A DNA stretch of 63,297 bases, the filler included. It is 7 parts of 7 records of this genome, joined end to end, with 100 filler letters (N's around TTAATTAATTAA, not from the genome) between each part and the next. Parts side by side here need not be neighbours in the genome. Positions count along the whole stretch, not along the records: positions 41,843 to 44,118 come from SRR11831585_790; 6 more parts are not named here. One strand, written 5' to 3'. Numbering within the stretch: the first letter of the stretch is position 1; each line of letters opens with the position of its first letter. This document shows positions 22,986-55,169 of this stretch, one piece after another. A model generated the notes under the pieces. The model made no database searches and had not been told where the DNA came from. It worked only from the letters and a program-made list of their open reading frames with translations. The position numbers were made by a program, and so were the translations under genes.

Positions 22986-22986
22986 A

Positions 22987-30421: not shown

Positions 30422-30471
30422 GAGGAACTCCTGTGGGAAAGCGAACCCGCCCTTGCGAGCGGGAGAAGAAC

Positions 30472-30792: not shown

Positions 30793-30806
30793 GGCTCGTT
30801 CCTCAA

Positions 30807-32194: not shown

Positions 32195-34696
32195 ATGGCC
32201 CTGATTGTGGAATTTATTTGTGAGCTACCTAACGGCGTACATGCGCGTCCGGCAAGCCACGTTGAAACGCTGTGTAATACTTTTTCATCACAAATTGAGT
32301 GGCATAACCTGCGCACTGACCGCAAGGGCAACGCCAAAAGCGCCCTTGCGCTGATTGGCACCGATACGCTGGCGGGCGATAACTGCCAGTTACTGATTTC
32401 CGGGGCCGACGAACAGGAAGCGCACCAGCGTTTAAGCCAATGGCTGCGCGATGAATTCCCCCACTGCGATGCGCCGCTGGCGGAAGTTAAATCTGACGAA
32501 CTGGAACCACTGCCGGTTTCACTGACCAATCTGAATCCGCAAATTATCCGCGCCCGCACCGTGTGCAGCGGTAGTGCAGGCGGCATTCTGACGCCGATCT
32601 CTTCTTTAGATCTCAATGCGCTGGGTAATCTTCCCGCAGCCAAAGGCGTTGACGCCGAGCAATCCGCACTGGAAAACGGCCTGACGCTGGTACTGAAAAA
32701 CATTGAGTTTCGTCTGCTGGATAGCGACGGTGCTACCAGCGCGATTCTGGAAGCTCACCGATCCCTGGCTGGCGATACTTCCCTGCGCGAACATTTACTG
32801 GCAGGCGTCAGCGCCGGATTAAGCTGCGCCGAAGCAATTGTTGCCAGCGCGAATCACTTTTGCGAAGAGTTTTCCCGTTCCAGCAGCAGCTACCTGCAAG
32901 AACGTGCCCTGGACGTACGCGACGTCTGCTTCCAGTTACTCCAGCAAATCTACGGTGAGCAACGCTTCCCGGCACCGGGCAAACTGACGCAGCCCGCCAT
33001 TTGTATGGCTGATGAACTGACCCCCAGCCAGTTCCTCGAACTGGATAAAAATCACCTCAAAGGATTGTTGCTCAAAAGCGGCGGCACCACCTCACATACG
33101 GTGATCCTTGCCCGTTCGTTCAACATTCCAACGCTGGTTGGTGTGGATATTGATGCCCTTACTCCGTGGCAGCAACAAACGATTTATATCGACGGCAACG
33201 CCGGGGCGATTGTGGTTGAGCCAGGGGAAGCCGTAGCTCGTTATTATCAGCAAGAAGCCCGCGTACAGGACGCCCTGCGTGAGCAACAGCGTGTCTGGCT
33301 GACCCAACAAGCCCGTACCGCTGACGGTATCCGCATTGAAATTGCCGCTAACATCGCTCACTCCGTGGAAGCGCAGGCCGCATTCGGCAATGGTGCGGAA
33401 GGCGTTGGTTTGTTCCGCACTGAAATGCTCTATATGGATCGCACCAGCGCACCGGGCGAAAGCGAGTTGTACAACATTTTTTGTCAGGCGCTGGAATCCG
33501 CCAACGGACGCAGCATTATTGTGCGCACTATGGACATTGGCGGCGACAAACCCGTTGATTATCTGAACATTCCCGCAGAGGCAAACCCGTTCCTCGGTTA
33601 TCGCGCCGTGCGTATTTATGAAGAGTACGCGTCGTTGTTTACCACGCAGCTACGGTCGATCCTCCGCGCCTCCGCTCACGGCAGCCTGAAAATCATGATC
33701 CCGATGATCTCCTCAATGGAAGAGATCTTATGGGTGAAAGAAAAACTGGCGGAAGCCAAACAGCAACTACGTAACGAACACATTCCGTTTGATGAGAAAA
33801 TCCAGCTCGGCATCATGCTGGAAGTGCCGTCGGTGATGTTCATCATCGATCAATGCTGCGAAGAGATTGATTTCTTTAGTATTGGTAGTAATGACCTGAC
33901 GCAGTATCTGCTGGCGGTGGATCGCGATAACGCTAAGGTTACTCGTCACTACAACAGCCTGAATCCGGCATTCTTGCGGGCGCTCGATTACGCCGTGCAA
34001 GCGGTGCATCGCCAGGGCAAATGGATTGGTCTGTGCGGTGAGCTGGGAGCGAAAGGTTCCGTGCTGCCGTTGCTGGTCGGCTTAGGGCTGGATGAACTCA
34101 GCATGAGCGCACCATCAATTCCGGCGGCGAAAGCTCGGATGGCGCAACTTGATAGCCGTGAGTGCCGCAAGTTGCTCAACCAGGCAATGGCCTGCCGTAC
34201 TTCGCTGGAAGTAGAACACCTGCTGGCGCAATTCCGCATGACCCAACAAGACGCACCGCTGGTCACCGCCGAGTGCATCACACTGGAAAGCGACTGGCGC
34301 AGCAAAGAAGAAGTGCTCAAAGGCATGACCGATAACCTGCTGCTGGCGGGCCGCTGCCGCTATCCGCGTAAACTGGAAGCCGACTTGTGGGCGCGCGAGG
34401 CCGTTTTCTCTACCGGTCTGGGCTTTAGTTTTGCCATTCCACACAGCAAATCAGAACACATTGAGCAATCCACCATCAGCGTGGCGCGTCTGCAAGCGCC
34501 GGTGCGCTGGGGCGATGATGAAGCGCAATTCATCATTATGTTAACCCTGAACAAACACGCTGCGGGCGATCAGCATATGCGCATTTTCTCGCGCCTCGCT
34601 CGCCGCATCATGCACGAAGAATTCCGTAACGCGCTGGTTAACGCCGCCTCTGCCGACGCTATCGCCAGCCTGCTGCAACATGAACTGGAACTGTAA
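32195..34696 (+). CDS. ptsA: multiphosphoryl transfer protein HPr-EI-EIIA (PtsA/FrwA)
   Basis: GVHARPA (HPr), TSHTVILAR (EI His), AIPH (EIIA-Fru). Confidence 0.94.
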
Positions 34697-34707
34697 AAGG
34701 AAACATC

Positions 34708-35370
34708 ATGGAACTGTATCTGGACACCGCTAACGTCGCAGAAGTCGAACGTCTGGCACGCATATTCCCCATTGCCGGGGTGACAACTAACCCGAGCATT
34801 ATCGCTGCCAGCAAGGAGTCCATATGGGAAGTGCTGCCGCGTCTGCAAAAAGCGATTGGTGATGAGGGCATTCTGTTTGCTCAGACCATGAGCCGCGACG
34901 CGCAGGGGATGGTGGAAGAAGCGAAGCGCCTGCGCGACGCTATTCCGGGTATTGTGGTGAAAATCCCGGTGACTTCCGAAGGTCTGGCAGCAATTAAAAT
35001 ACTGAAAAAAGAGGGTATTACTACACTTGGCACTGCTGTATATAGCGCCGCACAAGGGTTATTAGCCGCACTGGCAGGGGCAAAATACGTTGCTCCGTAT
35101 GTTAACCGCGTAGATGCTCAGGGCGGAGACGGCATTCGTACGGTTCAGGAGCTGCAAACGCTGTTAGAAATGCACGCGCCAGAAAGCATGGTGCTGGCAG
35201 CCAGCTTTAAAACGCCGCGTCAGGCGCTGGACTGTTTACTGGCAGGATGTGAATCCATCACCCTGCCCTTAGATGTAGCGCAACAAATGCTCAACACCCC
35301 TGCGGTAGAGTCAGCTATAGAGAAGTTCGAACACGACTGGAATGCCGCATTTGGCACTACTCATCTCTAA
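34708..35370 (+). CDS. fsaB: fructose-6-phosphate aldolase 2
   Basis: GVTTNPS, VVKIP, APYVNR transaldolase-family motifs. Confidence 0.94.
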
Positions 35371-35380
35371 AGGAGCAATT

Positions 35381-36484
35381 ATGGACCGCATTATTCAATC
35401 ACCGGGTAAATACATCCAGGGCGCTGATGTGATTAATCGTCTGGGCGAATACCTGAAGCCGCTGGCAGAACGCTGGTTAGTGGTGGGTGACAAATTTGTT
35501 TTAGGTTTTGCTCAATCCACTGTCGAGAAAAGCTTTAAAGATGCTGGACTGGTAGTAGAAATTGCGCCGTTTGGCGGTGAATGTTCGCAAAATGAGATCG
35601 ACCGTCTGCGTGGCATCGCGGAGACTGCGCAGTGTGGCGCAATTCTCGGTATCGGTGGCGGAAAAACCCTCGATACTGCCAAAGCACTGGCACATTTCAT
35701 GGGTGTTCCGGTAGCGATCGCACCGACTATCGCCTCTACCGATGCACCGTGCAGCGCATTGTCTGTTATCTACACCGATGAGGGTGAGTTTGACCGCTAT
35801 CTGCTGTTGCCAAATAACCCGAATATGGTCATTGTCGACACCAAAATCGTCGCTGGCGCACCTGCACGTCTGTTAGCGGCGGGTATCGGCGATGCGCTGG
35901 CAACCTGGTTTGAAGCGCGTGCCTGCTCTCGTAGCGGCGCGACCACCATGGCGGGCGGCAAGTGCACCCAGGCTGCGCTGGCACTGGCTGAACTGTGCTA
36001 CAACACCCTGCTGGAAGAAGGCGAAAAAGCGATGCTTGCTGCCGAACAGCATGTAGTGACTCCGGCGCTGGAGCGCGTGATTGAAGCGAACACCTATTTG
36101 AGCGGTGTTGGTTTTGAAAGTGGTGGTCTGGCTGCGGCGCACGCAGTGCATAACGGCCTGACCGCTATCCCGGACGCGCATCACTATTATCACGGTGAAA
36201 AAGTGGCATTCGGTACGCTGACGCAGCTGGTTCTGGAAAATGCGCCGGTGGAGGAAATCGAAACCGTAGCTGCCCTTAGCCATGCGGTAGGTTTGCCAAT
36301 AACTCTCGCTCAACTGGATATTAAAGAAGATGTCCCGGCGAAAATGCGAATTGTGGCAGAAGCGGCATGTGCAGAAGGTGAAACCATTCACAACATGCCT
36401 GGCGGCGCGACGCCAGATCAGGTTTACGCCGCTCTGCTGGTAGCCGACCAGTACGGTCAGCGTTTCCTGCAAGAGTGGGAATAA
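35381..36484 (+). CDS. gldA: glycerol dehydrogenase
   Basis: [26 protein letters not shown]; start MDRIIQS (367 aa). Confidence 0.96.
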
Positions 36485-36491
36485 CCTACTC

Positions 36492-36518
36492 CAAACTCCC
36501 GGCTTGTCCGGGAGTTTG
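36492..36518 (+). terminator. hairpin after gldA
   Basis: CAAACTCCCGG-cttgt-CCGGGAGTTTG. Confidence 0.75.
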
Positions 36519-36528
36519 AACGCAAAAT

Positions 36529-36548
36529 TGCCTGATGCGCTACGCTTA
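36529..36548. repeat. truncated REP at contig end
   Basis: TGCCTGATGCGCTACGCTTA. Confidence 0.8.
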
Positions 36549-36648: not shown

Positions 36649-37041
36649 TTTTTTTATGTGTCTGAATTTGCACTGTGTCACAATTCCAAATCTTTATTAA
36701 CAACTCACCTAAAACGACGCTGATCCAGCGTGAATACTGGTTTCCCTTATGTTCATCAGATTCATTTAAGCAAGGGTTTCTTCTTCATTCCTGATGAAAG
36801 TGCCATCTAAAAAGATGATCTTAATAAATCTATTAAGAATGAGATGGAGCACACTGGATATTTTACTTATGAAACTGTTTCACTCCTTTACTTAATTTAT
36901 AGAGTTACCTTCCGCTTTTTGAAAATACGCAACGGCCATTTTTTGCACTTAGATACAGATTTTCTGCGCTGTATTGCATTGATTTGATGCTAATCCTGTG
37001 GTTTGCACTAGCTTTAAGTGGTTGAGATCACATTTCCTTGC

Positions 37042-37083
37042 TCATCCCCGCAACTCCTCCCTGCCTAATCCCCCGCAGGATGA
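37042..37083 (+). promoter_or_regulatory. MalT boxes of the malPQ promoter
   Basis: GGA(G/T)GA cores: TCATCC 37042-37047 and TCCTCC 37055-37060 (reverse), GGATGA 37078-37083. Confidence 0.75.
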
Positions 37084-37130
37084 GGAAGGTCAACATCGAG
37101 CCTGGCAAACTAGCGATAACGTTGTGTTGA

Positions 37131-39548
<2,418 letters not shown>

Positions 39549-39557
39549 GGAAGCTCG

Positions 39558-41642
39558 ATGGAAAGCAAACGTCTGGATAATGCCGCGCTGGCGGCGGGGA
39601 TTAGCCCCAATTACATCAATGCCCACGGTAAACCGCAGTCGATTAGCGCCGAAACCAAACGGCGTTTGCTTGACGCGATGCATCAACGTACCGCCACGAA
39701 AGTGGCGGTAACGCCAGTCCCGAATGTCATGGTTTATACCAGCGGCAAAAAAATGCCGATGGTGGTGGAGGGCAGCGGCGAATATAGCTGGCTGCTGACC
39801 ACCGAAGAAGGAACGCAGTACAAAGGCCATGTAACGGGGGGCAAAGCGTTCAATCTACCGACGAAGCTGCCGGAAGGTTATCACACGCTGACACTCACCC
39901 AGGACGACCAGCGCGCGCATTGCCGGGTGATTGTCGCCCCGAAACGCTGTTACGAACCGCAGGCGTTGCTGAATAAACAAAAGCTGTGGGGTGCCTGCGT
40001 TCAGCTTTATACGCTGCGATCGGAAAAAAACTGGGGTATTGGGGATTTTGGCGATCTCAAAGCGATGCTGGTGGATGTGGCAAAACGTGGCGGGTCGTTC
40101 ATTGGCCTGAACCCGATTCATGCGCTCTATCCGGCAAATCCGGAGAGCGCCAGCCCATACAGCCCGTCTTCTCGCCGTTGGCTGAATGTGATTTATATCG
40201 ACGTTAACGCCGTTGAAGATTTCCATCTTAGCGAAGAGGCTCAGGCCTGGTGGCAGTTGCCGACCACGCAACAGACGCTGCAACAGGCGCGCGATGCCGA
40301 CTGGGTCGATTACTCCACGGTTACCGCCCTAAAAATGACAGCATTACGAATGGCGTGGAAAGGTTTCGCGCAACGTGATGATGAGCAGATGGCCGCGTTT
40401 CGCCAGTTTGTTGCAGAGCAGGGCGACAGCCTGTTCTGGCAGGCAGCCTTTGATGCGCTACATGCCCAGCAAGTGAAAGAGGACGAAATGCGCTGGGGCT
40501 GGCCTGCATGGCCAGAGATGTATCAGAACGTGGATTCACCAGAAGTGCGTCAGTTCTGCGAAGAACATCGTGATGACGTCGATTTTTATCTCTGGTTGCA
40601 GTGGCTGGCTTACAGCCAGTTTGCCGCCTGCTGGGAGATAAGCCAGGGCTATGAAATGCCGATTGGCTTGTATCGTGATCTGGCGGTTGGCGTAGCGGAA
40701 GGTGGGGCGGAAACCTGGTGTGACCGTGAACTATATTGCCTGAAAGCATCGGTTGGCGCGCCGCCGGATATCCTCGGCCCGTTGGGGCAGAACTGGGGAT
40801 TACCGCCAATGGACCCGCATATCATCACCGCGCGTGCCTATGAACCGTTTATCGAGCTGTTGCGTGCCAATATGCAAAACTGCGGCGCATTACGAATTGA
40901 CCATGTGATGTCGATGCTGCGTTTGTGGTGGATACCGTATGGCGAGACGGCAGATCAGGGCGCGTATGTTCACTATCCGGTGGATGATCTGCTCTCGATT
41001 CTGGCACTCGAAAGTAAACGTCATCGCTGTATGGTGATTGGTGAAGATCTCGGTACCGTACCGGTAGAGATTGTCGGTAAGCTGCGCAGCAGCGGTGTGT
41101 ACTCTTACAAAGTGCTCTATTTCGAAAACGACCACGAGAAGACGTTCCGTGCACCGAAAGCGTATCCGGAGCAGTCGATGGCGGTTGCGGCGACACATGA
41201 CCTGCCAACGCTGCGCGGTTACTGGGAGTGCGGGGATCTAACGCTGGGCAAAACCCTGGGGCTGTATCCGGATGAAGTGGTACTGCGCGGTCTGTATCAG
41301 GATCGCGAACTGGCGAAGCAAGGGCTGCTGGATGCACTGCATAAATATGGTTGTCTGCCGAAACGTGCCGGGCATAAGGCATCGTTGATGTCGATGACGC
41401 CGACGCTGAACCGTGGTTTGCAGCGCTACATTGCCGACAGTAACAGTGCTCTGTTAGGACTACAGCCGGAAGACTGGCTGGATATGGCCGAACCGGTGAA
41501 TATTCCTGGCACCAGTTACCAGTATAAAAACTGGCGACGCAAGCTTTCCGCAACGCTTGAGTCGATGTTTGCCGATGATGGCGTGAACAAGTTGCTGAAG
41601 GATTTGGACAGACGGCGCAGAGCTGCAGCGAAGAAGAAGTAG
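39558..41642 (+). CDS. malQ: 4-alpha-glucanotransferase (amylomaltase, GH77)
   Basis: GAPPD, RIDH, GEDLG, THD motifs. Confidence 0.98.
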   Translation: MESKRLDNAALAAGISPNYINAHGKPQSISAETKRRLLDAMHQRTATKVAVTPVPNVMVYTSGKKMPMVVEGSGEYSWLLTTEEGTQYKGHVTGGKAFNLPTKLPEGYHTLTLTQDDQRAHCRVIVAPKRCYEPQALLNKQKLWGACVQLYTLRSEKNWGIGDFGDLKAMLVDVAKRGGSFIGLNPIHALYPANPESASPYSPSSRRWLNVIYIDVNAVEDFHLSEEAQAWWQLPTTQQTLQQARDADWVDYSTVTALKMTALRMAWKGFAQRDDEQMAAFRQFVAEQGDSLFWQAAFDALHAQQVKEDEMRWGWPAWPEMYQNVDSPEVRQFCEEHRDDVDFYLWLQWLAYSQFAACWEISQGYEMPIGLYRDLAVGVAEGGAETWCDRELYCLKASVGAPPDILGPLGQNWGLPPMDPHIITARAYEPFIELLRANMQNCGALRIDHVMSMLRLWWIPYGETADQGAYVHYPVDDLLSILALESKRHRCMVIGEDLGTVPVEIVGKLRSSGVYSYKVLYFENDHEKTFRAPKAYPEQSMAVAATHDLPTLRGYWECGDLTLGKTLGLYPDEVVLRGLYQDRELAKQGLLDALHKYGCLPKRAGHKASLMSMTPTLNRGLQRYIADSNSALLGLQPEDWLDMAEPVNIPGTSYQYKNWRRKLSATLESMFADDGVNKLLKDLDRRRRAAAKKK

Positions 41643-41653
41643 AGTGCGGTTGA

Positions 41654-41742
41654 TGCCGGATGCGATGCTTGACGCGTCTTATCCGGCCTACTAATTCATC
41701 CCGAATCGTAGGCCGGATAAGGCGGTCACGCCGCATCCGGCA
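41654..41742. repeat. REP pair (BIME) at contig end
   Basis: TGCCGGATGCGATGCTTGACGCGTCTTATCCGGCCTAC and GTAGGCCGGATAAGGCGGTCACGCCGCATCCGGCA. Confidence 0.9.
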
Positions 41743-41842
41743 NNNNNNNNNNNNNNNNNNNNNNNNNNNNNNNNNNNNNNNNNNNNTTAATTAATTAANN
41801 NNNNNNNNNNNNNNNNNNNNNNNNNNNNNNNNNNNNNNNNNN
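41743..41842. other. artificial contig linker 4
   Basis: N44-TTAATTAATTAA-N44. Confidence 0.99.
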
Positions 41843-41942
41843 AAAAAAATGTGGATCAAATATATAATCCACTTGCGTTCGCTGTGCGCCGCACACCGCT
41901 GGGGGGCACTCATTTTCTGGCTACTTCGTACGTGCATTCACC

Positions 41943-42110
41943 ATGCAGATGAGCCTGGGCTTCAAAACGGGTGTGCAGGGGTTGGTGCTCGGAACCGCAT
42001 TAGCAATGGTCTGGCGCAAGTACATGATTGTGGACGCGAGGGAGCAGCGACGACAGTTCTACGATGCTCAGTTGAAGGAGAACATTAAGAAACTCGCCGA
42101 GGACGATTAA
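41943..42110 (+). CDS. 55-aa single-TM protein, possibly cytochrome c oxidase Cox9/COX6C-like
   Basis: MQMSLGFKTGVQGLVLGTALAMVWRKYMIVDAREQRRQFYDAQLKENIKKLAEDD*; ACC-ATG context; alternative ATG at 41949; TM then RRQFY resembles yeast Cox9 REKFY (from memory). Confidence 0.5.
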   Translation: MQMSLGFKTGVQGLVLGTALAMVWRKYMIVDAREQRRQFYDAQLKENIKKLAEDD

Positions 42111-42410
42111 GTATTTGGTGCGTTGGTTCGCCTTTTCCCAACGTGAATGTTTGCTCATAGTTGCTGTGTAGATTGGTGTCTGTTGACTGCAACCTGCCCC
42201 TAGAATTAGCACTAGTCAAGCTTCCAAGTTATCGTCGTCTATAATGAAGATTGAGTAGACTTAACTCGCATTCTTTGCGCAAGGTATGATCACACTCGGT
42301 TTACTGTTATCACAGACCCCGGAGTCCGAGCTCTCGCTACCTCGTTCTCTCTCAGGTTTCATCGTACTGTACACACAAAAGAAACAGCCCATCACAGCAA
42401 CGCGTCCACC

Positions 42411-42701
42411 TTAAGCGGCCATCTTGTGGGACTGCTTCTGAGAGGACCGCAGCTTCCGCGACTCCTCGAGCTTCTTGAGGAACTTGGTATCTGCCTCACG
42501 CACTTGGGTGCGCAGGCTCTTGCGAGAGGGGTCGTTCCATCGAAGGCGGAACAGCTTCTGCTCATACTGTAGGGCGACATTAAGTTTCAACTTACATTCA
42601 TGAAGAGTCAAAATCCCTCATACATCAAGCTTAGTGCCAAAGAGGTTGTTCAGTTCCTTGTGGATAGACTCCAGCTTCTGGCTGCTCTGATCTGCGGACA
42701 T
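42411..42701 (-). CDS. two-exon eukaryotic hypothetical protein, 77 aa (exons 42701-42624 and 42566-42411)
   Basis: 57-nt intron GTATGA...CTACAG with an in-frame stop; spliced product MSADQSSQKLESIHKELNNLFGTKLD|YEQKLFRLRWNDPSRK...HKMAA*; AAAATG context. Confidence 0.65.
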
Positions 42702-43623
42702 TTTGGGTTGAGGTGGTGAAGGTACTCGGTTTTAAAGTAGAATGAAACGATCACAGTTCAGTGCGACTTTATGTGCGAAGTACGACGCGATGAGGTCAGT
42801 GTCTGACGTTGGCGTGCGTTGACGTGGAAACGTCTACGAGATTGATATGTGACGGAAGGATGGGTCGCGTGACGTACATTCACACGACGTACGGGTGCGC
42901 GTTGACAGGATGATGGGCTGCGCTGTTTTGAGGTGACATGCATATGGGGTTGCGTCGTAACTTGAAAACTCGGTCCCAACCACCATCGTGGGCACTGGAA
43001 CGGGAGTTTCTGGACCACTCTCCATGAAACAGTTACACTGTGCAGTATGGTAATGTGTGCACACGTTTGGAAGTGTTAGTACGATGTGGTACTTCAACAC
43101 ATTTGGCGAAGATCGTACTATCTACAGCACCTGTCAAAGTGGGATTCTTGAGTAAAATTTCTGCTCCGTAATGCAGTGTCCATCAACCAATGTGCCGTCA
43201 CTTCGCATCCCACCCAAGTCGTCGAAGGTGTACGAGTGTGTAACTCTTACCGTTTGATTGCGTCGAAAACCCTGGATGGACAGGAAGTTATGAACTTGAA
43301 TTTTTTTAAAAGATTTTGACGGACAGACAGCGGTGGAACTTTTCCGAATCGGCTCCATGCACTTTTTATCGACCCTCTGCACTAGCTAAATAACATAGCT
43401 GAAACTATTTGTAACACGGGGTAAGGGCGGTCTCGAGCTCGTAACAACAACTGTAATTCATCGTATGGCTCTCGAACCGTATACTGTACACACACACGCG
43501 CCCACCGCCCACCGCCGCAGCTGCCGTCCCGTCTACCAAGCGCGGCACACCACTGCCACAGGGTCACACAGTCTCTCACACGCACACGCATAGGCCCACG
43601 CCCACTACGTGCTTCGCATCGTG

Positions 43624-44063
43624 TTAGAAGGGCGCCTCTCGTGAGCCCCCGCCCGCATAGCCCTCGGGAGTGGCCCAGGCCTCGTCGTCGTCGGCCATCT
43701 CACCGCCACCATCATCCTCCGCACTCAGACGATCGTACTCCACACGTGCAAACCGGTCCCAGTCCCTGCACGCACAGACAGAGGGAGGGAGATCAGACAG
43801 AGACGAGATAAATGGGAAGGAACACATGGATAGCAACACACTGCATACGTATCAAACTCATGGCACACTGCAAAACAGAGAGAGAAAGAGAGACGACGTA
43901 CGACTCGGCATCCTCGCCGCGCGACAGGAAGGGGTCCTTCTGCTCCATGGCGGTGAACTTGTTCAGGTTGAACAGCACATTGAAAAAGTTGCTGGCCATC
44001 TGACACCGTTTCAGGTCCCGAAGCGTTATCCGCTGCCGGTCGTTGGGCTTAATCATGTCCAGC
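43624..44063 (-). CDS. PP2A regulatory subunit B'' (PR72 family), last two exons (44063-43902 and 43765-43624)
   Basis: LDMIKP...ITLRDLKRC...FFNVLFNLNKF...EQKDPF...S|DWDRFARVEYDRLSAE...EAPF*; removing the 136-nt GTACGT...TGCAG intron restores frame. Confidence 0.85.
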
Positions 44064-44087
44064 CTGTGCGCGTGCCCGTGAGACCAT

Positions 44088-44118
44088 GCACACACGCACA
44101 CACACACACACACGCGCG
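44088..44118. repeat. (CA)n microsatellite in intron at contig end
   Basis: GCACACACGCACACACACACACACACGCGCG. Confidence 0.85.
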
Positions 44119-44218
44119 NNNNNNNNNNNNNNNNNNNNNNNNNNNNNNNNNNNNNNNNNNNNTTAATTAATTAANNNNNNNNNNNNNNNNNNNNNNNNNN
44201 NNNNNNNNNNNNNNNNNN
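44119..44218. other. artificial contig linker 5
   Basis: N44-TTAATTAATTAA-N44. Confidence 0.99.
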
Positions 44219-44246
44219 GCGGCGCGAGCGCCTTATCCGGCCTACG
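44219..44246. repeat. truncated REP at contig start
   Basis: GCGGCGCGAGCGCCTTATCCGGCCTACG. Confidence 0.85.
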
Positions 44247-44249
44247 GGC

Positions 44250-47200
44250 TTACTCGGCAGACATCTTATGCTCGGTAACCTGATTAATGGTTTCCGGTCC
44301 CTGTTCCGGTTTCGGCAGATCGAGTGACGCGAGCGTGTTGTAAGCCGACTGGCTCACACCGCCCTCGAAGCTCATCTCGCTCGCCCCCGGCAGCTGGTAA
44401 GCATTCGCGCCCGGATTCCATTTCTTAAAGAACTCCGAAAGATCCGTCTGGGCGACCCAGGAGGCACACAGCATCAGCGTGTCCGCTGCGTTACCGTTGG
44501 ATTCAGCACAGTAATTCTTGCCGCCAAACTTGTCATTGCTGACCTCATCGCCGCGTGCTTTACGATGCATCAACTGGAACAGGTTCCAGCCTTTCATCCC
44601 TTCACGCTCGCTGTAAAACTCTGGCAGAGGAGTGCCATCTGGATACCATTTCTTGATATCAAAGTTTTTCTCTGCCCATTCCTTCAGCTGTGCGTACATC
44701 AGCAGACGGTCACCCGCACCGCCGCGTGCCCATGCCTGGTTGTTGCTCTCCTCCAGATATTCCGGTGCGACGGTAATATCGTCAGCGACACGGTTCATCT
44801 TGCCGAGATAACGATCCTGCATGTACAGCGCCAGCACGTTGTTAGCGACTTCAGTTGCACCCGGTACAGTCAACGGCGTTTCTGCGGCGTTATGACCGAC
44901 TTCATGCCAGATCAGCCAGTCGTTCAGCGGCGTCGTCGGCAGCGTGGTGCTGTTCGGCGAGAAGCTGCTGTTCATTACCGGATAACCCGAATGCGCATCA
45001 CCGATGGAGATCTGCACATCGTTGGTGAAACGATGTTTGTGGCCCGGCAAGTTTTTATAGGTAAACATCCGGTGCTTACCGTCTTCGCTATCACGGCCGT
45101 AGAAGTCATTCATCGAGCTGGCAAAGGTATCCAGATCGTTAGCGAATTGCTCCAGTCCGCCAGTGTAATTGCTGGCATTCAGGTTCTTCTTCGGTGTGGT
45201 ATAGACGAAAGCGTCTGATTCCAGCTCACCCAGCGGAGCCGGTGAGTTCAGATCGTTTTTCCATGCGCCGTCTTTATAGAACGGTGCTTTTACCACGCCA
45301 GTAAAGGTGAAGCTGGCAGATTCATTGGTAGAGCTATTGCCCTTGATATAAATCAGGCCACCGTAAGGCACCTTGAACTTCACCGTACCGCTAGCGTCCA
45401 GAGAGTACGTTTTAGTCACTCTTGGCGGACGGTTCAGCGCAACTTCATGCTTCTCACGTCCGGTCAGGTCGTCAGCCAGCGCCACGGTGACGGTCACAGG
45501 AACGTTCGCATTGGACTTAATGGTGACCTCTTTCTGAGCCGGTGCCCACAGGCCAGTTGACTGCATGTTACCTGCAAACCATTTGGTCGGATTCGAGTAC
45601 AGGCTGATGGTTTCAGTAACGTTCTGTCCCTCTTCCGATACTGCTCCCGGATACTTCTCGACATCAACTTTGATGTTCAGATCCCACCAGGAACGGCCCA
45701 GCATCAGGCGTGTCAGCGGTTTTTCCATATAGTTGAGCGGGTAGCTCGGGTTCATCATGCCCGCTTTGCTGCTACCGTCACCGTAGATCATGTTGTTATC
45801 GACCAGCGATTTTTTCAGATCTGCAGAACACTTGGTGCCGCCTGCATAGGCATCATTGGCGTAGCAGTTCAGGAACTCGGTGAACGTTTTAAAGCCCAGC
45901 TCGTCATTTTTGCCTTCTTCATAACGATAGCTCGTATCGTTCCACAGCCAGACCGACATGTTCTGGTACAGACGTTCCAGATCGACGCTGCTCAGACGCT
46001 CACCTTTGCGACCATTGGTCCGGAAGTAGAGCTCATGCTGATACAGACGCTGAATGTTGGTGCCTAAATCCGCAGCCTGCACCATCGCTTTTGCAGTGTC
46101 GGCGTTAAGGCTTAGTTGCGTATACTGTGGAACATACATGCCACCAGTAACCGGAACCCCCGTGCCAGGACGATATTCCAGGCAGTTGACCTCATAGTGA
46201 TATGCCGGATTAGTACACTCTTTCAGCCCCGGGAACGCGGCGAAAATTTTCTCCTTCGCAGCCTTCAGAGAATCCTCTGTTTTATGATCGGCCTCATCAA
46301 TAAAGGCATAACGCGTTTCCTGTTTGCCATCTACATCTTCCAGCCAGCTGGCAACTTCCAGCTTCGGTTTGTCATCAGGTTTGTTTTCTACCTGATATTT
46401 CCACTTAACTTCCCCTGTCTTACTATCGATGGTGTACGGCAGCGCACCATCTACGGCAGGATAACGTTCATAGACCCAAATGCCCGTTGCGCGCTGCTGA
46501 CGAACGCGGTTCGGATACCCTTGCGGATCGTTATTTACTACCGACTTGTTCAGTGCCATCGACAGACCTGCGGCATCCAACAGACGCACAAAACCAGACG
46601 CGCTCTCTTCCTTAAGATTGCTCATCACGTTTTCCATGATCAGCACCGATCCACCTTTGTTCAGATAGGCGATCAGATCGGTCACATCCTGCTGAGTCAG
46701 CTTCGGTTTGCTGGTATCTGCACGCAGCGGGATTGCATAAGGATCGTTACCCACCTGAGTCACATATTCAAAGCCGTTAAGGATCAGCAGCGGCATTTCC
46801 TGCGGATCGAGATCGCCATAGCTACTTAAATGCTCAACAGAGATGCCCGCAAAATCCGGATGGAAGTCGAACGCAGCGCTGTTTCCTGTAACCTGACCAT
46901 GACGTTTAAAATAGACAGTATCCAGGTTGGTGCCTACGGTCATGCTGGCTTTCGCGTCCGGCTTCCATTTATCGTCGGACAGATAGCGCAGCACGTTCTC
47001 CATGAAGTTCTTCATGTCATCCGGGTCGCTGTTGAGCGTACACTGCCCATCTTTATTAACGCCCCCGTTCCAGCTGTAACCGTTCGGGCAACGCAAAATG
47101 CTGTTGTAGTGTGGGTTACCGATAACCATCAGTTTGCCCTCACCGACTTGCCCCAGCGAAATAAACGGCAGGTTAAAGGTGGCGGTATCGCGCGTAACGT

Positions 47201-48812
47201 TTTCCGGCTCAACAAGAGAAGGCGCTTCCGTAATGTACGCCAGCTCGTTTTTATCCCAGGCGCGTTTTTCGCCGAAGGCCAGCCAGTAGTTTTTATCATT
47301 ACGCGCCATCAGAATCGGGAAGGCCGCGTTGGAGATATTCACCACCGCCTGACCGCGCGCATTACCCGTGCTGCCATAGAAGTTGGTGGAGTCATGGAAT
47401 ACATGGAACTTGCTGACAGATTTGTAGTTCGTATCCACGCCCCACAGCTTGTTGATAACGCCCTGAATCTGGCCGTCATTAACATTGCGCGTCGTCAGCG
47501 AGAACCAGCGAGCCTCGTTACAACCATCGGTTTTCGCACAAATCGCGGTATCGATCTCTTTGGCCTGACCCGTATTAAACTGCTCAATAAATTCGTTAGG
47601 CAGATTAACGACTTGCTCACCTTCCCCCAGCGTCGCACCGTTGGATAACGAGAGATTGATAATCTCGTTGATCACGTTGGGATATTCGGCAAAGACCTTG
47701 CGTACATCGTCCGGAACAACACGGGTATTATTTTGCCCGGTCGTCGAATAGCGATGAATAAGCTGATCAATATTCGCCCCGCGAACTTCATCACCCAGTT
47801 CAGTCAGCGCAATGGTCGACTTATTGCCGCGCACTGAACCCAGTTCAAAGGTATCGATACCAAAGGAGATGGTTTCGCCCCAGCTAAAGGAAAATTCACC
47901 ATTTTCCCCTGTCACGCCACGGCCTGAATTGGTGTAGTAGTTGACGCCAGCAACACCATATCCCTGGCTATCGACCAGTCGACCTTCAGAGAGAATGATT
48001 TCAGTGGGTTGATACTGATAAAACTGTTCCGCGTTAGCCGACACGAAGGAAGCGTTCAGATCCGGTTTTGTTCCCGGCGTGGTGACGGGCACGACCGGTG
48101 AAGTATGAGTGGATGGCGCTTTATCGGTCGCAGCATTGTTTTCCACCTCTTCATTGACCAGCTTTTTGAACTCTTCCGGTGCCAGATCGATTTGCTTATA
48201 CAGCGAGTCGAAGCGTTTACTCTCGATCACCGAGGAGAACGTCAGACAAACCTGTTCTGTATTCGCCGGACAGCTGTTACTGGACGTTACCAGCGAAACC
48301 GCATTGCTTTTCTTGTCATCGGAGCCCGCCAGTTCTTGCGCGTCCTCAAGGCTAAACGACACTTTTTCAACCGCACGCAAGCTACGCGCAGCTTCTGACT
48401 GAGTGTTGAAGGTGGCAATTGTCGTGTTACCCGCCACGCAAGTAACGTCCTCGCCAGGTTTAAATGTAAAGCCATCGCTGGATTCACCATTACAGGTAGC
48501 ACCAGTTACCCGCTGGCTTCCGCCCAGGGTCAGATAACCCGTTTTCGTAGGAACAGGTTCTGGCTCCGGTTCTGGTGTTGGTTCAGGATCAGGTATCGGT
48601 TCTGGCGTAGGCTCTGGGTCCGGCGTTGGCTCAGGCGTCGGCTCCGGGTTTGGTGTTGGATCAGGTTTCACTTCCGGCAAAGACCCTGTTCCAGAATCTA
48701 CAGGCGGCGTATCGGAGGAAGATCCGGAACCACCGCCATCACAACCGGCTAACAGGGTTGCGCTCAAAATAGCCGCTAAAAGCGATTTCTTATATTTAAA
48801 TTTCTTATTCAT
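44250..48812 (-). CDS. yghJ: lipoprotein M60-like metalloprotease YghJ (SslE/AcfD)
   Basis: lipobox LLAGC, Pro-rich linker, HEVGH(x8)..E zinc motif; start MNKKFKY (1520 aa). Confidence 0.95.
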   Translation of the reverse strand: MNKKFKYKKSLLAAILSATLLAGCDGGGSGSSSDTPPVDSGTGSLPEVKPDPTPNPEPTPEPTPDPEPTPEPIPDPEPTPEPEPEPVPTKTGYLTLGGSQRVTGATCNGESSDGFTFKPGEDVTCVAGNTTIATFNTQSEAARSLRAVEKVSFSLEDAQELAGSDDKKSNAVSLVTSSNSCPANTEQVCLTFSSVIESKRFDSLYKQIDLAPEEFKKLVNEEVENNAATDKAPSTHTSPVVPVTTPGTKPDLNASFVSANAEQFYQYQPTEIILSEGRLVDSQGYGVAGVNYYTNSGRGVTGENGEFSFSWGETISFGIDTFELGSVRGNKSTIALTELGDEVRGANIDQLIHRYSTTGQNNTRVVPDDVRKVFAEYPNVINEIINLSLSNGATLGEGEQVVNLPNEFIEQFNTGQAKEIDTAICAKTDGCNEARWFSLTTRNVNDGQIQGVINKLWGVDTNYKSVSKFHVFHDSTNFYGSTGNARGQAVVNISNAAFPILMARNDKNYWLAFGEKRAWDKNELAYITEAPSLVEPENVTRDTATFNLPFISLGQVGEGKLMVIGNPHYNSILRCPNGYSWNGGVNKDGQCTLNSDPDDMKNFMENVLRYLSDDKWKPDAKASMTVGTNLDTVYFKRHGQVTGNSAAFDFHPDFAGISVEHLSSYGDLDPQEMPLLILNGFEYVTQVGNDPYAIPLRADTSKPKLTQQDVTDLIAYLNKGGSVLIMENVMSNLKEESASGFVRLLDAAGLSMALNKSVVNNDPQGYPNRVRQQRATGIWVYERYPAVDGALPYTIDSKTGEVKWKYQVENKPDDKPKLEVASWLEDVDGKQETRYAFIDEADHKTEDSLKAAKEKIFAAFPGLKECTNPAYHYEVNCLEYRPGTGVPVTGGMYVPQYTQLSLNADTAKAMVQAADLGTNIQRLYQHELYFRTNGRKGERLSSVDLERLYQNMSVWLWNDTSYRYEEGKNDELGFKTFTEFLNCYANDAYAGGTKCSADLKKSLVDNNMIYGDGSSKAGMMNPSYPLNYMEKPLTRLMLGRSWWDLNIKVDVEKYPGAVSEEGQNVTETISLYSNPTKWFAGNMQSTGLWAPAQKEVTIKSNANVPVTVTVALADDLTGREKHEVALNRPPRVTKTYSLDASGTVKFKVPYGGLIYIKGNSSTNESASFTFTGVVKAPFYKDGAWKNDLNSPAPLGELESDAFVYTTPKKNLNASNYTGGLEQFANDLDTFASSMNDFYGRDSEDGKHRMFTYKNLPGHKHRFTNDVQISIGDAHSGYPVMNSSFSPNSTTLPTTPLNDWLIWHEVGHNAAETPLTVPGATEVANNVLALYMQDRYLGKMNRVADDITVAPEYLEESNNQAWARGGAGDRLLMYAQLKEWAEKNFDIKKWYPDGTPLPEFYSEREGMKGWNLFQLMHRKARGDEVSNDKFGGKNYCAESNGNAADTLMLCASWVAQTDLSEFFKKWNPGANAYQLPGASEMSFEGGVSQSAYNTLASLDLPKPEQGPETINQVTEHKMSAE
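48552..48665 (-). repeat. coding tandem repeats (PEPTP/PDPEP) in the YghJ N-terminus
   Basis: translation PDPTPNPEPTPEPTPDPEPTPEPIPDPEPTPEPEPEPVP. Confidence 0.85.
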
Positions 48813-48955
48813 TAATAACGCAAGTGACAAAACAATGTTAAAAAATTCGTAACTGGGAGAAATAGTTTTATGCTTTATCTTCTCTAATAACTTCCTCCAT
48901 TCTTAAGAAAACGACATCATTGATAGAAAACAGGTGAAATTTATAAGAATAACCC

Positions 48956-49015
48956 CTATACGATGTCTATCTGGCTATTTTTACGAAATTTCAACAAACA
49001 AAAAATTAACAACAT
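48956..49015 (-). CDS. candidate 19-aa small protein upstream of yghJ
   Basis: MLLIFCLLKFRKNSQIDIV* in AT-rich yghJ leader; ORF presence only. Confidence 0.3.
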   Translation of the reverse strand: MLLIFCLLKFRKNSQIDIV

Positions 49016-49258
49016 TTCACAACGTAACTATATAAATTTGTTGGTAGTTTTAACGATTAAGATTGCAAAAGCAACAGATAGAACGGTGTTTGCTCATCAA
49101 GCGAACATAATTAATACAGACTTGTTTTGCGTGATAAAAAAATAGATGTTCTCACGCTCTTAATTATTTAGCAGGTTATCTGAACGCAAAACATTATTGC
49201 TGCATGGATAATAAAGCGAGAAATGATTTTCAATTAATAAGACAGAATAATGTAAATG

Positions 49259-49290
49259 AAGCCGGATGATATTAACGATCATCCGGCTTT
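49259..49290 (-). terminator. hairpin after glcA
   Basis: AAGCCGGATGAT-attaacg-ATCATCCGGCTT. Confidence 0.7.
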
Positions 49291-49296
49291 ATTGAT

Positions 49297-50979
49297 TTAC
49301 GAGACTAACATCCCGGTAAACACATACGCCTGCAGCAGGGTGATAATGCCGATAACGCTGGCAAAAATCAGACTGTGCTTCACGGTGTAGCGGAACAGTT
49401 CAGATTCTCGGCCCACCATGCCCGTCGCGGCGCAGGCCACGGCGATAGATTGCGGGGAGATCATCTTGCCAGTTACGCCGCCGCTGGTGTTTGCTGCCAC
49501 CAGCAGGGTGTCAGAGACGTTGATTTGCTGCGCCGTGGTCGATTGCAGTGAACCAAACAGGGCGTTAGAGGAGGTGTCCGAGCCGGTAAGGAATACGCCC
49601 AGCCAGCCGAGAAACGGTGAGAAGAACGGGAACATCACGCCTGTACCTGCCAGTACCAGCGCCAGCGTGGTGGACATGCCAGAATAGTTGGTGACGAAGG
49701 CGAACGCCAGCACCATGCCAATCGACAGTATCGGCCACTTCAAGCTAATTAGCGTTTCGGCAAAGACGCCAATACCTTTCTTGATCCCCACACCGAGGAT
49801 GAAGATAGAGATAATCGCCGCAATAAAAATAGCGGTGCCGCCAGCCGAGAGGGGGTCGAATTTAAACACCGCATCCATTGGCGTTGGTTGGGCGACAATG
49901 GGTGCCGCTTTCAACACTTGTTGATGCAAATGAGGGATCTGGAAATTAATCACCAGTGAATAAAACGCGCCGCCCGGAGCAAATAACGCTTTAAACGGCT
50001 TCATGGTCCAGATGGTGACCAGCACCGTTAAGATTAAAAACGGTGACCACGCTCGAATGATTTGCCCCAGACTATATTCTGAAGGCACGGGACCGCCAGA
50101 AGATGGCTTATTTACCACCATCGCACCTGCGGATTGTCCCATGCTGATTGCCGTTTCGGTATTTTTCGGCCGCCAGACTTTAAGGAATAAAGCGAGTGAG
50201 ACGATACTCACCAGCGCCGAAGTAATATCCGGCAGTTCCGGACCAATATAGTTAGAGGTAAAGAACTGAGTGACAGCGAAGCTTCCCCCAGCAACCAGCG
50301 CCGCTGGCCACGTCTCTTTCACCCCTTTCCAGCCGTCCATCATTGCTACCAGCCAGAACGGCACAAGAACCGACAGGAACGGTAACTGACGTCCCGCCAT
50401 TGCGCCAATGTGGAACGGATCGATTCCCGTTACCTGACCGGCGACCAGAATCGGCACGCCCAACGCACCAAACGCCACCGGCGCAATATTGGCAATCAGA
50501 CACAGCCCCGCCGCGTATAACGGTTTGAAGCCCAGGCCCACCAGCAGCGCACCGGTAATCGCCACCGGCGCACCAAAGCCAGCCGCTCCTTCCAGCAACG
50601 CACCAAAGGAGAAACCAATCAGTAACACCTGCAAACGCTGATCGTCGGTGATGGAGATAACCGAGCTGCGGATAATATCGAACTGCCCGCTGGCAACGGT
50701 TAATTTATACAGGAACACCGCCGCGACAATAACCCACGCTATTGGCCATAATCCATAAATAAAGCCATAGCCCGCAGCAGCAAATGCCATATCAATCGGC
50801 ATTTTAAAGGCGAATATTGCAATCAGGATAGATAATATAAGGGTTATTGCTCCAGCGACATGTCCTTTCAGACGTAATACCGCGAGTGCAACGAAGAAGA
50901 ATATTATCGGGATCAGGGCGACCAGAGCGGATAGCCCCAGTCCTCCCATCGGCATATACATTTGGGTCCAGGTAACCAT
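49297..50979 (-). CDS. glcA: glycolate/lactate permease
   Basis: 560 aa LctP family: [26 protein letters not shown]. Confidence 0.95.
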
Positions 50980-51293
50980 ATTGTTCAGTCTCTTATTATC
51001 TTTATATGCTTGATATACTTAAGGTTGTAATAAGCAAAAGAGGACTGAACTGTAAAATATAGGCGTTATACTTTACAGCAACAGTACGCCGCTAACGCAA
51101 TTGCTACCTCTGGCATAACAAGTATATCGGGTAAGGGTTTCTGTTCCGCACACGCAGACGCAGAGTATCGTTAAGATGTCCATATTGTTGTTTTAGGCCC
51201 GCTAGTAATGCGCTACGGGTATTTAATATTGTTAAACCCTGATAATCGCTCCGGTTATTTCCGGGATAAATGTACTACCGCAGTTACTATCAT

Positions 51294-51326
51294 AGCCCCG
51301 ACAATAAAACTTGCCGGGGCTTTTTT
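51294..51326. terminator. hairpin after glcB
   Basis: AGCCCCGACAA-taaaac-TTGCCGGGGCT followed by T-run. Confidence 0.6.
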
Positions 51327-51333
51327 GACGCTA

Positions 51334-53505
51334 TTAATGACTTTCTTTTTCGCGTAAACGCCAGGCGTGTAATAACGGTTCGGTATAGCCGTTTGGCTGT
51401 TTCACGCCGAGGAAGATTAAATCGCTGGCAGCTTTAAAAGCACACGAGTTAGCGAAATTCCCCGCCATCGGACGATAAGCCGGATCGCCAGCGTTTTGCT
51501 GATCAACCACTTTCGCCATATTCTCCAGCGACGCCTGCACCTGTTCTTTGGTCAGAATACCGTGACGTAACCAGTTGGCGATATGCTGGCTGGAGATACG
51601 CAGCGTTGCGCGGTCTTCCATCAACGCCACATTGTGAATATCCGGCACTTTTGAACAACCAATCCCCTGCTCCACCCAGCGCACCACGTACCCCAGAATC
51701 CCCTGCACGTTGTTATCCAGCTCTTGTTGGATCTCTTGCGCCGACCAGTTAGCGTTTTCAGCAACCGGAATAGTCAGCAGATCGTCCAGCAGCGGTTCAA
51801 ATTCAGCATTGAACTCGGTCTGGGCAATGTTGGCTTGTACGCTCTGTACGTTGGTTTGGTGGTAGTGCAGCGCATGGAGCGTAGCAGCGGTTGGTGACGG
51901 AACCCAGGCTGTGTTTGCCCCGGCACGCAGTTGGTCGCCCTTCTGGCTGTACATGTCTGCCATCAGGTCCGGCATTGCCCACATGCCTTTACCAATTTGC
52001 GCTTTACCGCGCAGCCCACAGAACAGACCGGAAAGCACGTTATTACGCTCGTAGGCTTTGATCCAAGGCGTCGATTTCATCTGATTTTTACGCAGCATCG
52101 GGCCAGCTTCCATCACCGAATGCATTTCATCGCCGGTACGGTCGAGGAAACCGGTATTGATGAACGCCACGCGGTTGCGCGCCTGAGCGATACAGCTACG
52201 CAAGTTCAGCGAGGTCCGACGTTCTTCATCCATAATGCCCATTTTCAGGGTATTCGGTGCCATACCGAGCATTGTCTCAATGCGGGTAAACAGTTTGTTG
52301 GCGAACGCCACTTCCTGCGGACCGTGCATTTTCGGTTTCACAATATAGACGCTGCCAGTGCGCGAGTTTTTCTGCACTTTTAAATCATAGAGGGCAATCG
52401 CGCCAGTCATGACGCCATCAAGAATGCCTTCCGGGATTTCATTGCCTTCGCTGTCCCAAATCACAGGAATGGTCATCAAATGACCCACGTTGCGGATAAA
52501 CAGCAGCGAGCGTCCGTGCAGAGAAATTTCAGAGCCATCGGCGGCGGTGTAATGACGATCGTCATTCAGTTTACGCACGATTTGCCGACCGTTTTTCTCC
52601 ATTTTCTCTTGCAGAGTCCCCTGCATCAGGCCCAGCAGGTTGCGGTACAGCAGGATTTTATCTTCCGCATCAACCGCCGCGACCGAATCTTCGCAGTCGA
52701 GAATGGTACTGATAGCAGCTTCGACGATAACATCGTTGATGTGCGCCGGATCGTCTTTGCCAATCCGCCCATTGGCATCGATTTGCAGCTCAATATGCAG
52801 GCCGTTATTTTTCAGCAAAATGCAGGTCGGCGCAGCGGCATCGCCACGGTAACCGACAAACTGTGCTGGAGTACGTAACGTGGTTTCTTTACCATTTTTC
52901 AACTGGATGCGTAATTGTTTATCAACCACCTTAAACGCCACCACATCCTGATAGCTGCCGTTTTCCAGCGGTAGAGATTCATCGAGGAAACGCCGAACCC
53001 AGGCGATAACCTGCTCACCGCGTTGCGGATCGTAGCCGCTGACCATCGCCCCTTCCTGCGGGATGATGTCGCTGCCGTATAACGCATCGTACAGTGAGCC
53101 CCAGCGAGCGTTCGCCGCGTTCAGCGCGTAGCGGGCGTTCATTGCCGGAACCACCAGCTGCGGCCCCGCCTGGCTGGTGATTTCGCTGTCAATGCCCGTG
53201 GTTTCCACCGTCACGCGCTCCGGTTGCGGCACCAGGTAGCCCAGTTCACGCAGGAAAGATTTATAGGCCGCTTTATCTTTTACCGGCCCCGGATTGCTGC
53301 GATGCCACTCATCAAGCGCTGCCTGAATGCGATCGCGTTCTGCCAGCAACTGACGATTTTCTGGTGCCAGATCATGAACGATCTCATCAAAATTGCGCCA
53401 GAACGCCGCAGCGTCCAGCCCTGTTCCCGGTAAAACTTCTTCATCCACAAAACGTTTAAAATTGGCGTCAATGCGTAAACGGCTCTGGGTTATGGTTTGA
53501 CTCAT
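51334..53505 (-). CDS. glcB: malate synthase G
   Basis: 723 aa; [36 protein letters not shown]. Confidence 0.98.
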
Positions 53506-53526
53506 TGTTTATCTCCTCGTTTTCGC

Positions 53527-53931: not shown

Positions 53932-53935
53932 TTTG

Positions 53936-55159: not shown

Positions 55160-55169
55160 AGCCTGCTCC

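What the first reader, a model, noticed from the sequence alone, without database searches (positions are those of the whole stretch)
41843..44118. A eukaryotic contig sits among E. coli contigs
Seen: a 2276-nt contig with no bacterial-type genes, two complete GT-AG introns whose removal restores frames, a further acceptor site, and CA/GA microsatellites. Known: PP2A B'' subunits and spliceosomal introns are eukaryotic. Inference: the assembly mixes organisms, for example a microbial eukaryote sequenced with E. coli food or cloning host, or the reverse. Both ends abut artificial linkers, so there is no evidence of physical integration into E. coli.
Basis: partly seen in the sequence, partly recalled or inferred. 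Interest (0 to 1): 0.75.

Follow-up and report, generated by a model that had tools for sequence, protein, structure and literature searches.

The report
Protist DNA contig in E. coli assembly
One short piece of this draft Escherichia coli assembly is nuclear DNA from a single-celled eukaryote, with introns and a phosphatase-subunit gene, so it is sample or cloning contamination and not part of the bacterium's biology.

Summary
The window is seven separate contigs joined by N44-TTAATTAATTAA-N44 linkers. Six contigs are 100% identical to E. coli K-12 laboratory strains. The 2276-nt contig 41843-44118 matches nothing in 5,426 E. coli genomes, 72,556 plasmids or the nearest held genome.

Its minus strand holds the last two exons of a PP2A B'' regulatory subunit (solved PR72/PR70 chains, E 2.8e-10; 59 homologues, every named one eukaryotic). 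They are split by a 136-nt GT-AG intron. Removing it gives 100 residues with no stop that align end to end with the C-terminus of a transcript-derived protein of the malawimonad Gefionella okellyi.

Two small gene models (77 aa with a 57-nt intron; 55 aa) share the same codon bias, GC3 0.75-0.78 against 0.41-0.55 in control ORFs.

Two single-base differences place the E. coli among cloning-host K-12 strains, not MG1655.

Verdict: foreign protist DNA co-assembled with a laboratory E. coli. The route, loose contamination or co-culture versus a cloned insert, cannot be told without reads. There is no evidence of integration. This is ordinary and of low interest.

The parts
41743..41842 (.). Artificial linker (N44 + TTAATTAATTAA + N44) between the malPQ contig and the eukaryotic contig
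41843..44118 (.). Free-standing 2276-nt eukaryotic contig. The left end starts with an A7 run and the right end stops in a (CA)n array
41943..42110 (+). 55-aa single-exon ORF (stop 42108-42110) for a small protein with one hydrophobic stretch. It has one distant relative, P0060. Weak leads point to the Cox9/COX6C/COX5C type of small mitochondrial subunit
42411..42566 (-). Exon 2 (51 codons + TAA at 42413-42411) of the predicted 77-aa gene
   Evidence: no homologue found
42567..42623 (-). Predicted 57-nt GT-AG intron (GTATGA...CTACAG), phase 0, with an in-frame stop at the donor
   Evidence: predicted from signals only
42624..42701 (-). Exon 1 (ATG 42701-42699, 26 codons) of the predicted 77-aa gene
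43624..43765 (-). Last exon of the PP2A B'' gene (G + 46 codons + TAA at 43626-43624), with the conserved DWDRFA...EAPF C-terminus
43766..43901 (-). 136-nt spliceosomal-type intron (GTACGT...GTGCAG) splitting a TCG codon after its second base
   Evidence: The unnamed relatives P0001 and P0003 run into non-homologous sequence at the same point
43902..44063 (-). Penultimate exon of the PP2A B'' gene (LDMIKPND...GEDAES)
44064..44118 (-). 3' end of a further intron (acceptor GCACAG, AG at 44065-44064), cut by the contig end. It contains the (CA)12.5 array at 44089-44113
44119..44218 (.). Artificial linker before the sslE-glcA E. coli contig

Best explanation
The contig is a fragment of the nuclear genome of a microbial eukaryote. 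Its closest named relative for the one informative gene is the malawimonad flagellate Gefionella okellyi.

It carries three tightly packed genes:
- the 3' end of a PP2A B'' regulatory-subunit gene, with one whole intron and part of another;
- a predicted 77-aa gene with a 57-nt intron;
- a 55-aa membrane-protein gene.

It is not E. coli DNA and does nothing in E. coli. It sits in the assembly because the sequenced library held DNA of two organisms: a K-12 cloning-host-type E. coli and this protist. The assembler, or a binning step, kept a short protist contig whose G+C (0.52) is like that of E. coli.

Shown: eukaryotic origin, intron 1, foreign composition, no attached E. coli or vector sequence, and the laboratory lineage of the E. 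coli.

Inferred: that the two DNAs were merely mixed (bench, co-culture or sequencing-run contamination) and not joined in one molecule.
For: - PP2A B'' homology. Three of 3 PDB hits are B'' subunits, E 2.8e-10 to 3.1e-8. 59 of 61 candidates pass E<=1e-3, and every named one is eukaryotic.
- Intron 1. The spliced product is 100 aa with no stop. It aligns 1-100 to residues 480-582 of 582 of Gefionella P0002, 65% identity, E 2e-40. The two exons abut without a gap in the alignment.
- Phylogeny. The query is sister to Gefionella with support 96/87 in a 41-row tree.
- Codon bias. GC3 is 0.75-0.78 in the three gene models, against 0.41-0.55 in 7 control ORFs. Introns and intergenic DNA have GC 0.39-0.50.
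- Composition and gene density are unlike the six E. coli contigs.
- No match in 5,426 E. coli genomes, in G001 or in the plasmid collection, so no known backbone lies within the contig.
- The contig ends in a CA microsatellite, which is a typical assembly break.
- The six neighbours lie at scattered places in G001 and several end in multi-copy REP-like repeats. Contig order therefore says nothing about linkage.
Against: No reads, depths or mate pairs could be examined, and the whole assembly is not held. A physical link is therefore neither shown nor excluded.

The E. coli carries alleles of cloning hosts. That fits a cloned insert at least as well as loose contamination.

The left end (A7 run) is not an obvious repeat break.

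The malawimonad placement rests on 100 residues and on only those taxa that the word-indexed search returned.
Confidence: 0.6

Rival explanations
1. Cloned insert. The fragment is part of a piece of protist genomic DNA carried in a plasmid, fosmid or BAC inside the E. coli host that was sequenced. It would then be physically in the cell but not in the chromosome.
For: The E. coli shares two alleles with exactly the same 56 records, among them DH5alpha, NEB 5-alpha, DH1, JM109, XL1-Blue, XL10-Gold, TOP10, Stbl4 and S17-1. MG1655, C600 and ER1709 each show one mismatch. That these are cloning hosts is recalled knowledge. The DNA is genomic, since introns are present, as in a genomic library.
Against: No vector sequence lies within or at the ends of the contig ('distant' mode, no match). 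The right end is a CA microsatellite, not a cloning junction. No other contig of the window is a vector.
Confidence: 0.3
2. Real transfer: the eukaryotic fragment is integrated in the E. coli chromosome or in a natural plasmid.
For: None. It is simply not excluded, because both ends are linkers.
Against: The strain is a K-12 laboratory lineage identical to references over all six neighbouring contigs. 0 of 5,426 E. coli genomes hold the sequence. The genes are intron-bearing and truncated, and so unusable in a bacterium.
Confidence: 0.01
3. The contig is bacterial or phage DNA, and its resemblance to a eukaryotic gene is chance.
For: A frame-restoring GT..AG pair alone is not beyond chance.
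Against: E 1.6e-22 against 5.8 billion proteins. End-to-end alignment to a eukaryotic C-terminus after splicing. 0 of 8 ORFs hit NCBIfam. ORF coverage is 14%.
Confidence: 0.005

Closest known systems
PP2A regulatory subunit B'' (PR72/PR130/PR70 family; solved chains 4i5j, 4i5l, 4mew)
   Same: The exon 43902-44063 aligns with PR72 residues 241-285 (E 2.8e-10). The last exon carries the conserved DWDRFA...EAPF tail seen in protist, algal and plant B'' proteins.
   Different: Only the last 100 residues are on the contig. The EF-hand part that defines the family lies beyond the contig end. Identity to the closest named protein (Gefionella okellyi) is 65% over the 100 residues.
Foreign-organism contamination of draft bacterial assemblies (a general, well-known artefact; recalled, not taken from a call)
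   Same: A short contig of foreign composition, unlinked to the host contigs, in a fragmented short-read-type assembly.
   Different: The contaminant is not one of the usual sources such as human, PhiX or vector. It comes from a protist whose nearest named relative is a rarely sequenced malawimonad.
Small single-pass cytochrome c oxidase subunits (Cox9 / COX6C / plant COX5C)
   Same: The 55-aa protein has one hydrophobic stretch followed by a charged tail. Language-model features score 0.92 to Cox9 and 0.90 to COX6C clusters, all Eukaryota. The weakest-but-only PDB hits include COX5C (E 1.3 and 0.79).
   Different: No hit reaches significance. Pfam gives only COX14 at E 0.076, below its cut-off. 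Membership is not shown.

Membership tests
PP2A B'' regulatory subunit | Conserved C-terminal segment that follows the EF-hand pair (PR72 residues about 241-285) | tested here: met
   phmmer against PDB: 3 of 3 hits are B'' subunits, E 2.8e-10, 4.8e-9 and 3.1e-8. 59 homologues were found.
PP2A B'' regulatory subunit | EF-hand domains (Pfam EF-hand_13 PF17958, EF-hand_7 PF13499) | not testable with these tools
   That part of the gene lies upstream of the contig end at 44118. The full-length relative P0002 carries both domains (5.8e-31 and 5.8e-14), and many full-length hits list them.
Spliceosomal (GT-AG) intron | GT...AG borders, and removal gives a product collinear with a transcript-derived orthologue | tested here: met
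   Intron 43901-43766: borders; collinearity with the Gefionella transcript protein.
Spliceosomal (GT-AG) intron | Spliced RNA observed | not testable with these tools
   No sequencing run could be listed for the contig, so read laying could not be used.
Spliceosomal (GT-AG) intron (second intron, 42623-42567) | Removal gives a product supported by homology | tested here: inconclusive
   No homologue of the 77-aa product was found. Support comes only from GT-AG borders, the restored frame and GC3 of 0.77. Frame restoration alone is not beyond chance.
Malawimonadida (source organism) | Groups with a named malawimonad in a gene tree | tested here: inconclusive
   The query is sister to Gefionella okellyi with support 96/87 in a 41-row tree of about 100-130 C-terminal residues. 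19 short rows were left out. This is one short gene with limited taxon sampling and 67% identity.
E. coli K-12 cloning-host lineage (the six neighbouring contigs) | 100% identity to K-12 laboratory strains, with lineage alleles shared with DH1/DH5alpha-type strains | tested here: met
   Searches give 100% identity. Window 24226 is A against G in MG1655 CP032667. The same 56 records are perfect for both test stretches.
Cox9/COX6C/COX5C small oxidase subunit (55-aa ORF) | Significant sequence or profile match to the family | tested here: inconclusive
   Atlas feature scores are 0.92 and 0.90. PDB COX5C scores E 1.3 and 0.79. Pfam COX14 scores E 0.076, below its cut-off.

The most novel reading that the evidence does not exclude
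The contig is a stray genomic fragment of a malawimonad-related flagellate that is not represented, at species level, in the protein and contig collections searched here. The best unnamed relative is 90% identical over 52 residues, and the best named one, Gefionella, is 65% identical over 100. If so, a bacterial assembly has by accident preserved nuclear DNA, with intron positions and gene order, from a lineage that matters for placing the root of eukaryotes. The rest of that assembly or its reads may hold more of it.
Probability: 0.3. Interest if true: 0.3.

Novelty: already known. Interest (0 to 1): 0.1.

Why it matters
The main value is for data hygiene. The contig should be removed from, or flagged in, the E. 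coli assembly, so that a PP2A subunit with introns is never reported as an E. coli gene or as inter-domain gene transfer.

A minor second value is that the reads behind the assembly may hold more nuclear DNA of a rarely sequenced protist lineage.

Tried and rejected
- The look-up of sequencing runs on the whole contig: none was listed, and no RNA holder was listed.
- The whole assembly is not held, so depth, other contigs and vector content could not be checked.
- Genome contigs: 399 pattern matches, of which 0 were confirmed. An exact 40-mer gave 0 matches.
- Metagenome contigs: 41 loci at 56-68% identity. None is close, and they were not followed further.
- Word-indexed protein searches for the 51-aa exon and the 55-aa ORF found no candidates.
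- The Atlas gave no usable hit for the 51-aa exon.
- Pfam on the five exons and ORFs gave only sub-threshold hits: COX14 at E 0.076, and Orexin_rec2 at E 0.01, which is taken as spurious.
- PDB hits for the two small proteins were not significant. The geranyltranstransferase hit at E 0.06 lies in the N-terminal extension of P0060 and was discarded.
- Rfam and tRNA scans found nothing.
- Literature was read only as passages. Gefionella is kept with mixed unidentified bacteria (PMC5936906). Jakobids are fed Enterobacter aerogenes (PMC3590771). PMC8134430 mentions malawimonad genome data. None mentions E. coli as food for malawimonads, so the 'food bacterium' route has no direct support. Supplements were not seen.
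- The idea that contig order reflects chromosome order was rejected. The six E. coli contigs map to scattered places in G001.

Full report
**Layout.** The window is not one molecule. Twelve runs of exactly 44 N flank six TTAATTAATTAA words. This gives seven contigs: 1-13709, 13810-27804, 27905-36548, 36649-41742, 41843-44118, 44219-59763 and 59864-63297 (the sequence is seen). The finding is the fifth contig, 2276 nt, G+C 0.519. Its G+C is indistinguishable from its neighbours (0.522-0.538), so base composition alone would not flag it.

**The neighbours are laboratory E. coli.**
- The two flanking contigs (malP-malQ, and the first 6 kb of the sslE-glcA contig) are 100% identical to K-12 laboratory strains. 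So are the other four.
- All six align full-length to the nearest held genome G001 at 94-99%. They map to scattered positions (2.66, 3.47, 4.08, 3.50, 3.07 and 2.21 Mb), so the order of contigs carries no linkage information.
- Several contig ends match dozens of places in G001 over about 30-90 nt. These are REP-like repeats, and they show that the assembly breaks at very short repeats.
- Contig 2 differs from MG1655 (CP032667) at one base, window 24226 in mrcA, A against G. It is identical to DH5alpha (CP025520).
- A 3-kb query around that base is perfect in 56 records: DH5alpha, NEB 5-alpha, DH1 and derivatives, JM109, XL1-Blue, XL10-Gold, TOP10, Stbl4, S17-1, ST18, ER1821R, ER2683, a series of 'laboratory developed' TUM strains, USML2, and a few labelled K-12 or MG1655. 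The next four listed rows, ER1709 among them, score one mismatch lower.
- Contig 3 is perfect in exactly the same 56 records. MG1655, C600, ME8067 and one more score one mismatch lower.
- The bacterial part is therefore a K-12 strain of the cloning-host group. That these names are cloning hosts is my recalled knowledge.

**The contig is not E. coli.**
- It has no megablast match in 20,395 E. coli records covering 5,426 genomes.
- It has no match in G001 and no blastn match in 72,556 plasmid records.
- Its strand-symmetric tetranucleotide profile correlates 0.27 with the pooled E. coli contigs. Twenty-four E. coli chunks of the same length give 0.70-0.93.
- ORFs of at least 100 aa cover 14% of it, against 84-94% of each E. 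coli contig.
- CTAG, which E. coli avoids, occurs at 1.32 per kb against 0.15.
- None of its 8 longest stop-to-stop ORFs hits NCBIfam or Pfam at E<=0.01.
- No Rfam family and no tRNA were found.

**The PP2A B'' gene.**
- On the minus strand, the frame from 44062 to 43903 reads LDMIKPNDRQRITLRDLKRCQMASNFFNVLFNLNKFTAMEQKDPFLSRGEDAE.
- Against all PDB chains, the only three hits are PP2A B'' subunits: PR72 4i5j at E 2.8e-10, PR70 4i5l at 4.8e-9, and 4mew at 3.1e-8.
- Against 5.8 billion proteins, 59 of 61 candidates pass E<=1e-3, the best at 1.6e-22. Every hit that carries a name is eukaryotic: Chara, Micromonas, Gracilariopsis, Gracilaria, Agarophyton, Esox, a second fish, Adineta and Albugo. 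Many full-length hits carry the EF-hand_13 and EF-hand_7 domains.
- The cluster look-up names the best full-length hit, P0002 (77% over this exon), as Gefionella okellyi, and P0005 as Ancoracysta twista.

**Introns of the PP2A B'' gene.**
- Homology begins exactly after an AG at 44065-44064. The 55 nt upstream, which include the CA array, read as non-homologous CVCVCV.
- The exon ends at 43902, two bases into a TCG codon, followed by GTACGT.
- 136 nt later, GTGCAG is followed by G GAC TGG GAC ..., which completes the codon and reads DWDRFARVEYDRLSAEDD...SREAPF and then TAA at 43626-43624.
- Joined in a script, the two exons give 100 residues with no stop. They align 1-100 to residues 480-582 of the 582-residue Gefionella protein: 65% identity, three gap positions, E 2e-40 in the local set of 60 proteins.
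- In the multiple alignment the exons abut at the point where the transcript-derived proteins run on without interruption.
- Two unnamed genomic ORF predictions, P0001 (90%) and P0003 (72%), leave homology at exactly that point. P0001 regains it 66 residues later. Relatives therefore have an intron at the same site.
- This intron is as well supported as it can be without RNA.

**Two further gene models.**
- A 77-codon model lies on the minus strand: ATG at 42701, exon 1 to 42624, a 57-nt GTATGA...CTACAG intron, exon 2 from 42566 to 42414, and TAA at 42413-42411. No homologue was found.
- A 55-codon ORF lies on the plus strand at 41943-42107.
  - In an exhaustive HMMER scan of 1.84 billion representatives it has one relative, the unnamed P0060, at E 3.4e-5. 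Identity is 47% over 53 residues, and the two proteins are collinear from the internal Met of P0060 to its end.
  - Weak, concordant but non-significant leads point to Cox9/COX6C/COX5C-type small mitochondrial subunits. That these three names are one family is recalled.
- A control shows that a frame-restoring GT..AG is cheap. The real contig allows 25 such models of at least 77 codons, and 20 shuffles allow 9-27. The 57-nt intron is therefore not proven by its borders.
- What supports both small genes is codon bias. GC at codon positions 1/2/3 is 0.65/0.42/0.78 for B'', 0.55/0.35/0.77 for the 77-aa model and 0.56/0.31/0.75 for the 55-aa ORF. Seven other long ORFs of the contig have GC3 of 0.41-0.55. 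Introns and spacers have GC 0.39-0.50.
- I put the 55-aa gene at about 0.8 and the 77-aa model at about 0.6.

**Repeats.** TRF finds (CA)12.5 at 44089-44113 at the very end of the contig, a CACACG-type array at 43577-43605 and two short arrays. Perfect GA or TC runs reach only four units. By comparison, the 60,421 nt of E. coli contigs hold 2 perfect CA/TG/GA/TC runs of at least 4 units, and this 2276-nt contig holds 4.

**Source organism.**
- A maximum-likelihood tree of the C-terminal region was built from 41 rows. 19 short or intron-containing rows were left out, and they are listed.
- It places the window's protein as sister to Gefionella okellyi with support 96/87.
- This is one gene of about 100 residues, and only taxa returned by a word-indexed search were sampled. 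I rate a malawimonad or close relative at about 0.5.
- Metagenome contigs give nothing closer than 68%.
- Malawimonads eat bacteria and are kept in cultures with bacteria (passages of PMC5936906). Comparable flagellates are fed added live bacteria (passages of PMC3590771). Neither paper mentions E. coli as the food.

**How it got there.**
- What is shown: two organisms' DNA are in one assembly, with no sequence joining them.
- What is inferred: the route.
- Loose mixture (bench or run cross-contamination, or a protist culture fed a laboratory strain) fits the microsatellite break, the lack of any vector sequence and the very fragmented assembly.
- A cloned genomic insert fits the cloning-host genotype and the fact that the DNA is genomic.
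- I give 0.6 to mixture, 0.3 to a clone, about 0.01 to integration and less to a non-eukaryotic origin.
- Eukaryotic origin itself I rate at 0.97 or more.

**Comparison and novelty.** The gene is an ordinary member of the PP2A B'' family as far as the C-terminal 100 residues can show. The EF-hand part cannot be tested, because it is not on the contig. Contamination of draft bacterial assemblies is a known artefact (recalled). Nothing here is new in kind. The only mildly interesting point is the likely source lineage.

**Verdict.** Biological interest is low (0.1).

Noticed in passing
window 24226 (mrcA, contig 13810-27804) and contig 27905-36548: One base differs from MG1655 in each of the two contigs. 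The same 56 records, nearly all named cloning or donor strains (DH5alpha, DH1, JM109, XL1-Blue, TOP10, Stbl4, S17-1 and others), are the only perfect matches for both stretches.
   Followed up: yes
ends of the E. coli contigs, e.g. 13676-13709, 36519-36548, 41653-41742, 44219-44248, 59864-59894: The contig ends match tens of places in G001 over about 30-90 nt. These are REP-like repeats, so the assembly breaks at very short repeats. That suggests short reads, a small k or low depth.
   Followed up: partly
proteins P0001 and P0003 (unnamed records): Two unnamed genomic ORF calls, 90% and 72% identical to the B'' exon, run into non-homologous sequence at exactly the window's intron site. Close relatives of the source organism therefore exist in public read assemblies.
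   Followed up: partly
records NZ_CP174267.1 and NZ_CP011124.1: A record labelled MG1655 (4,597,530 bp) and strain USML2 (source Elaeis guineensis) carry both cloning-strain alleles. Their labels may not reflect their lineage.
   Followed up: no
window 42702-43623: A 922-nt spacer lies between the B'' stop and the start of the 77-aa gene. It has no recognisable gene, RNA family or tRNA, and presumably holds a 3' UTR and a promoter.
   Followed up: partly
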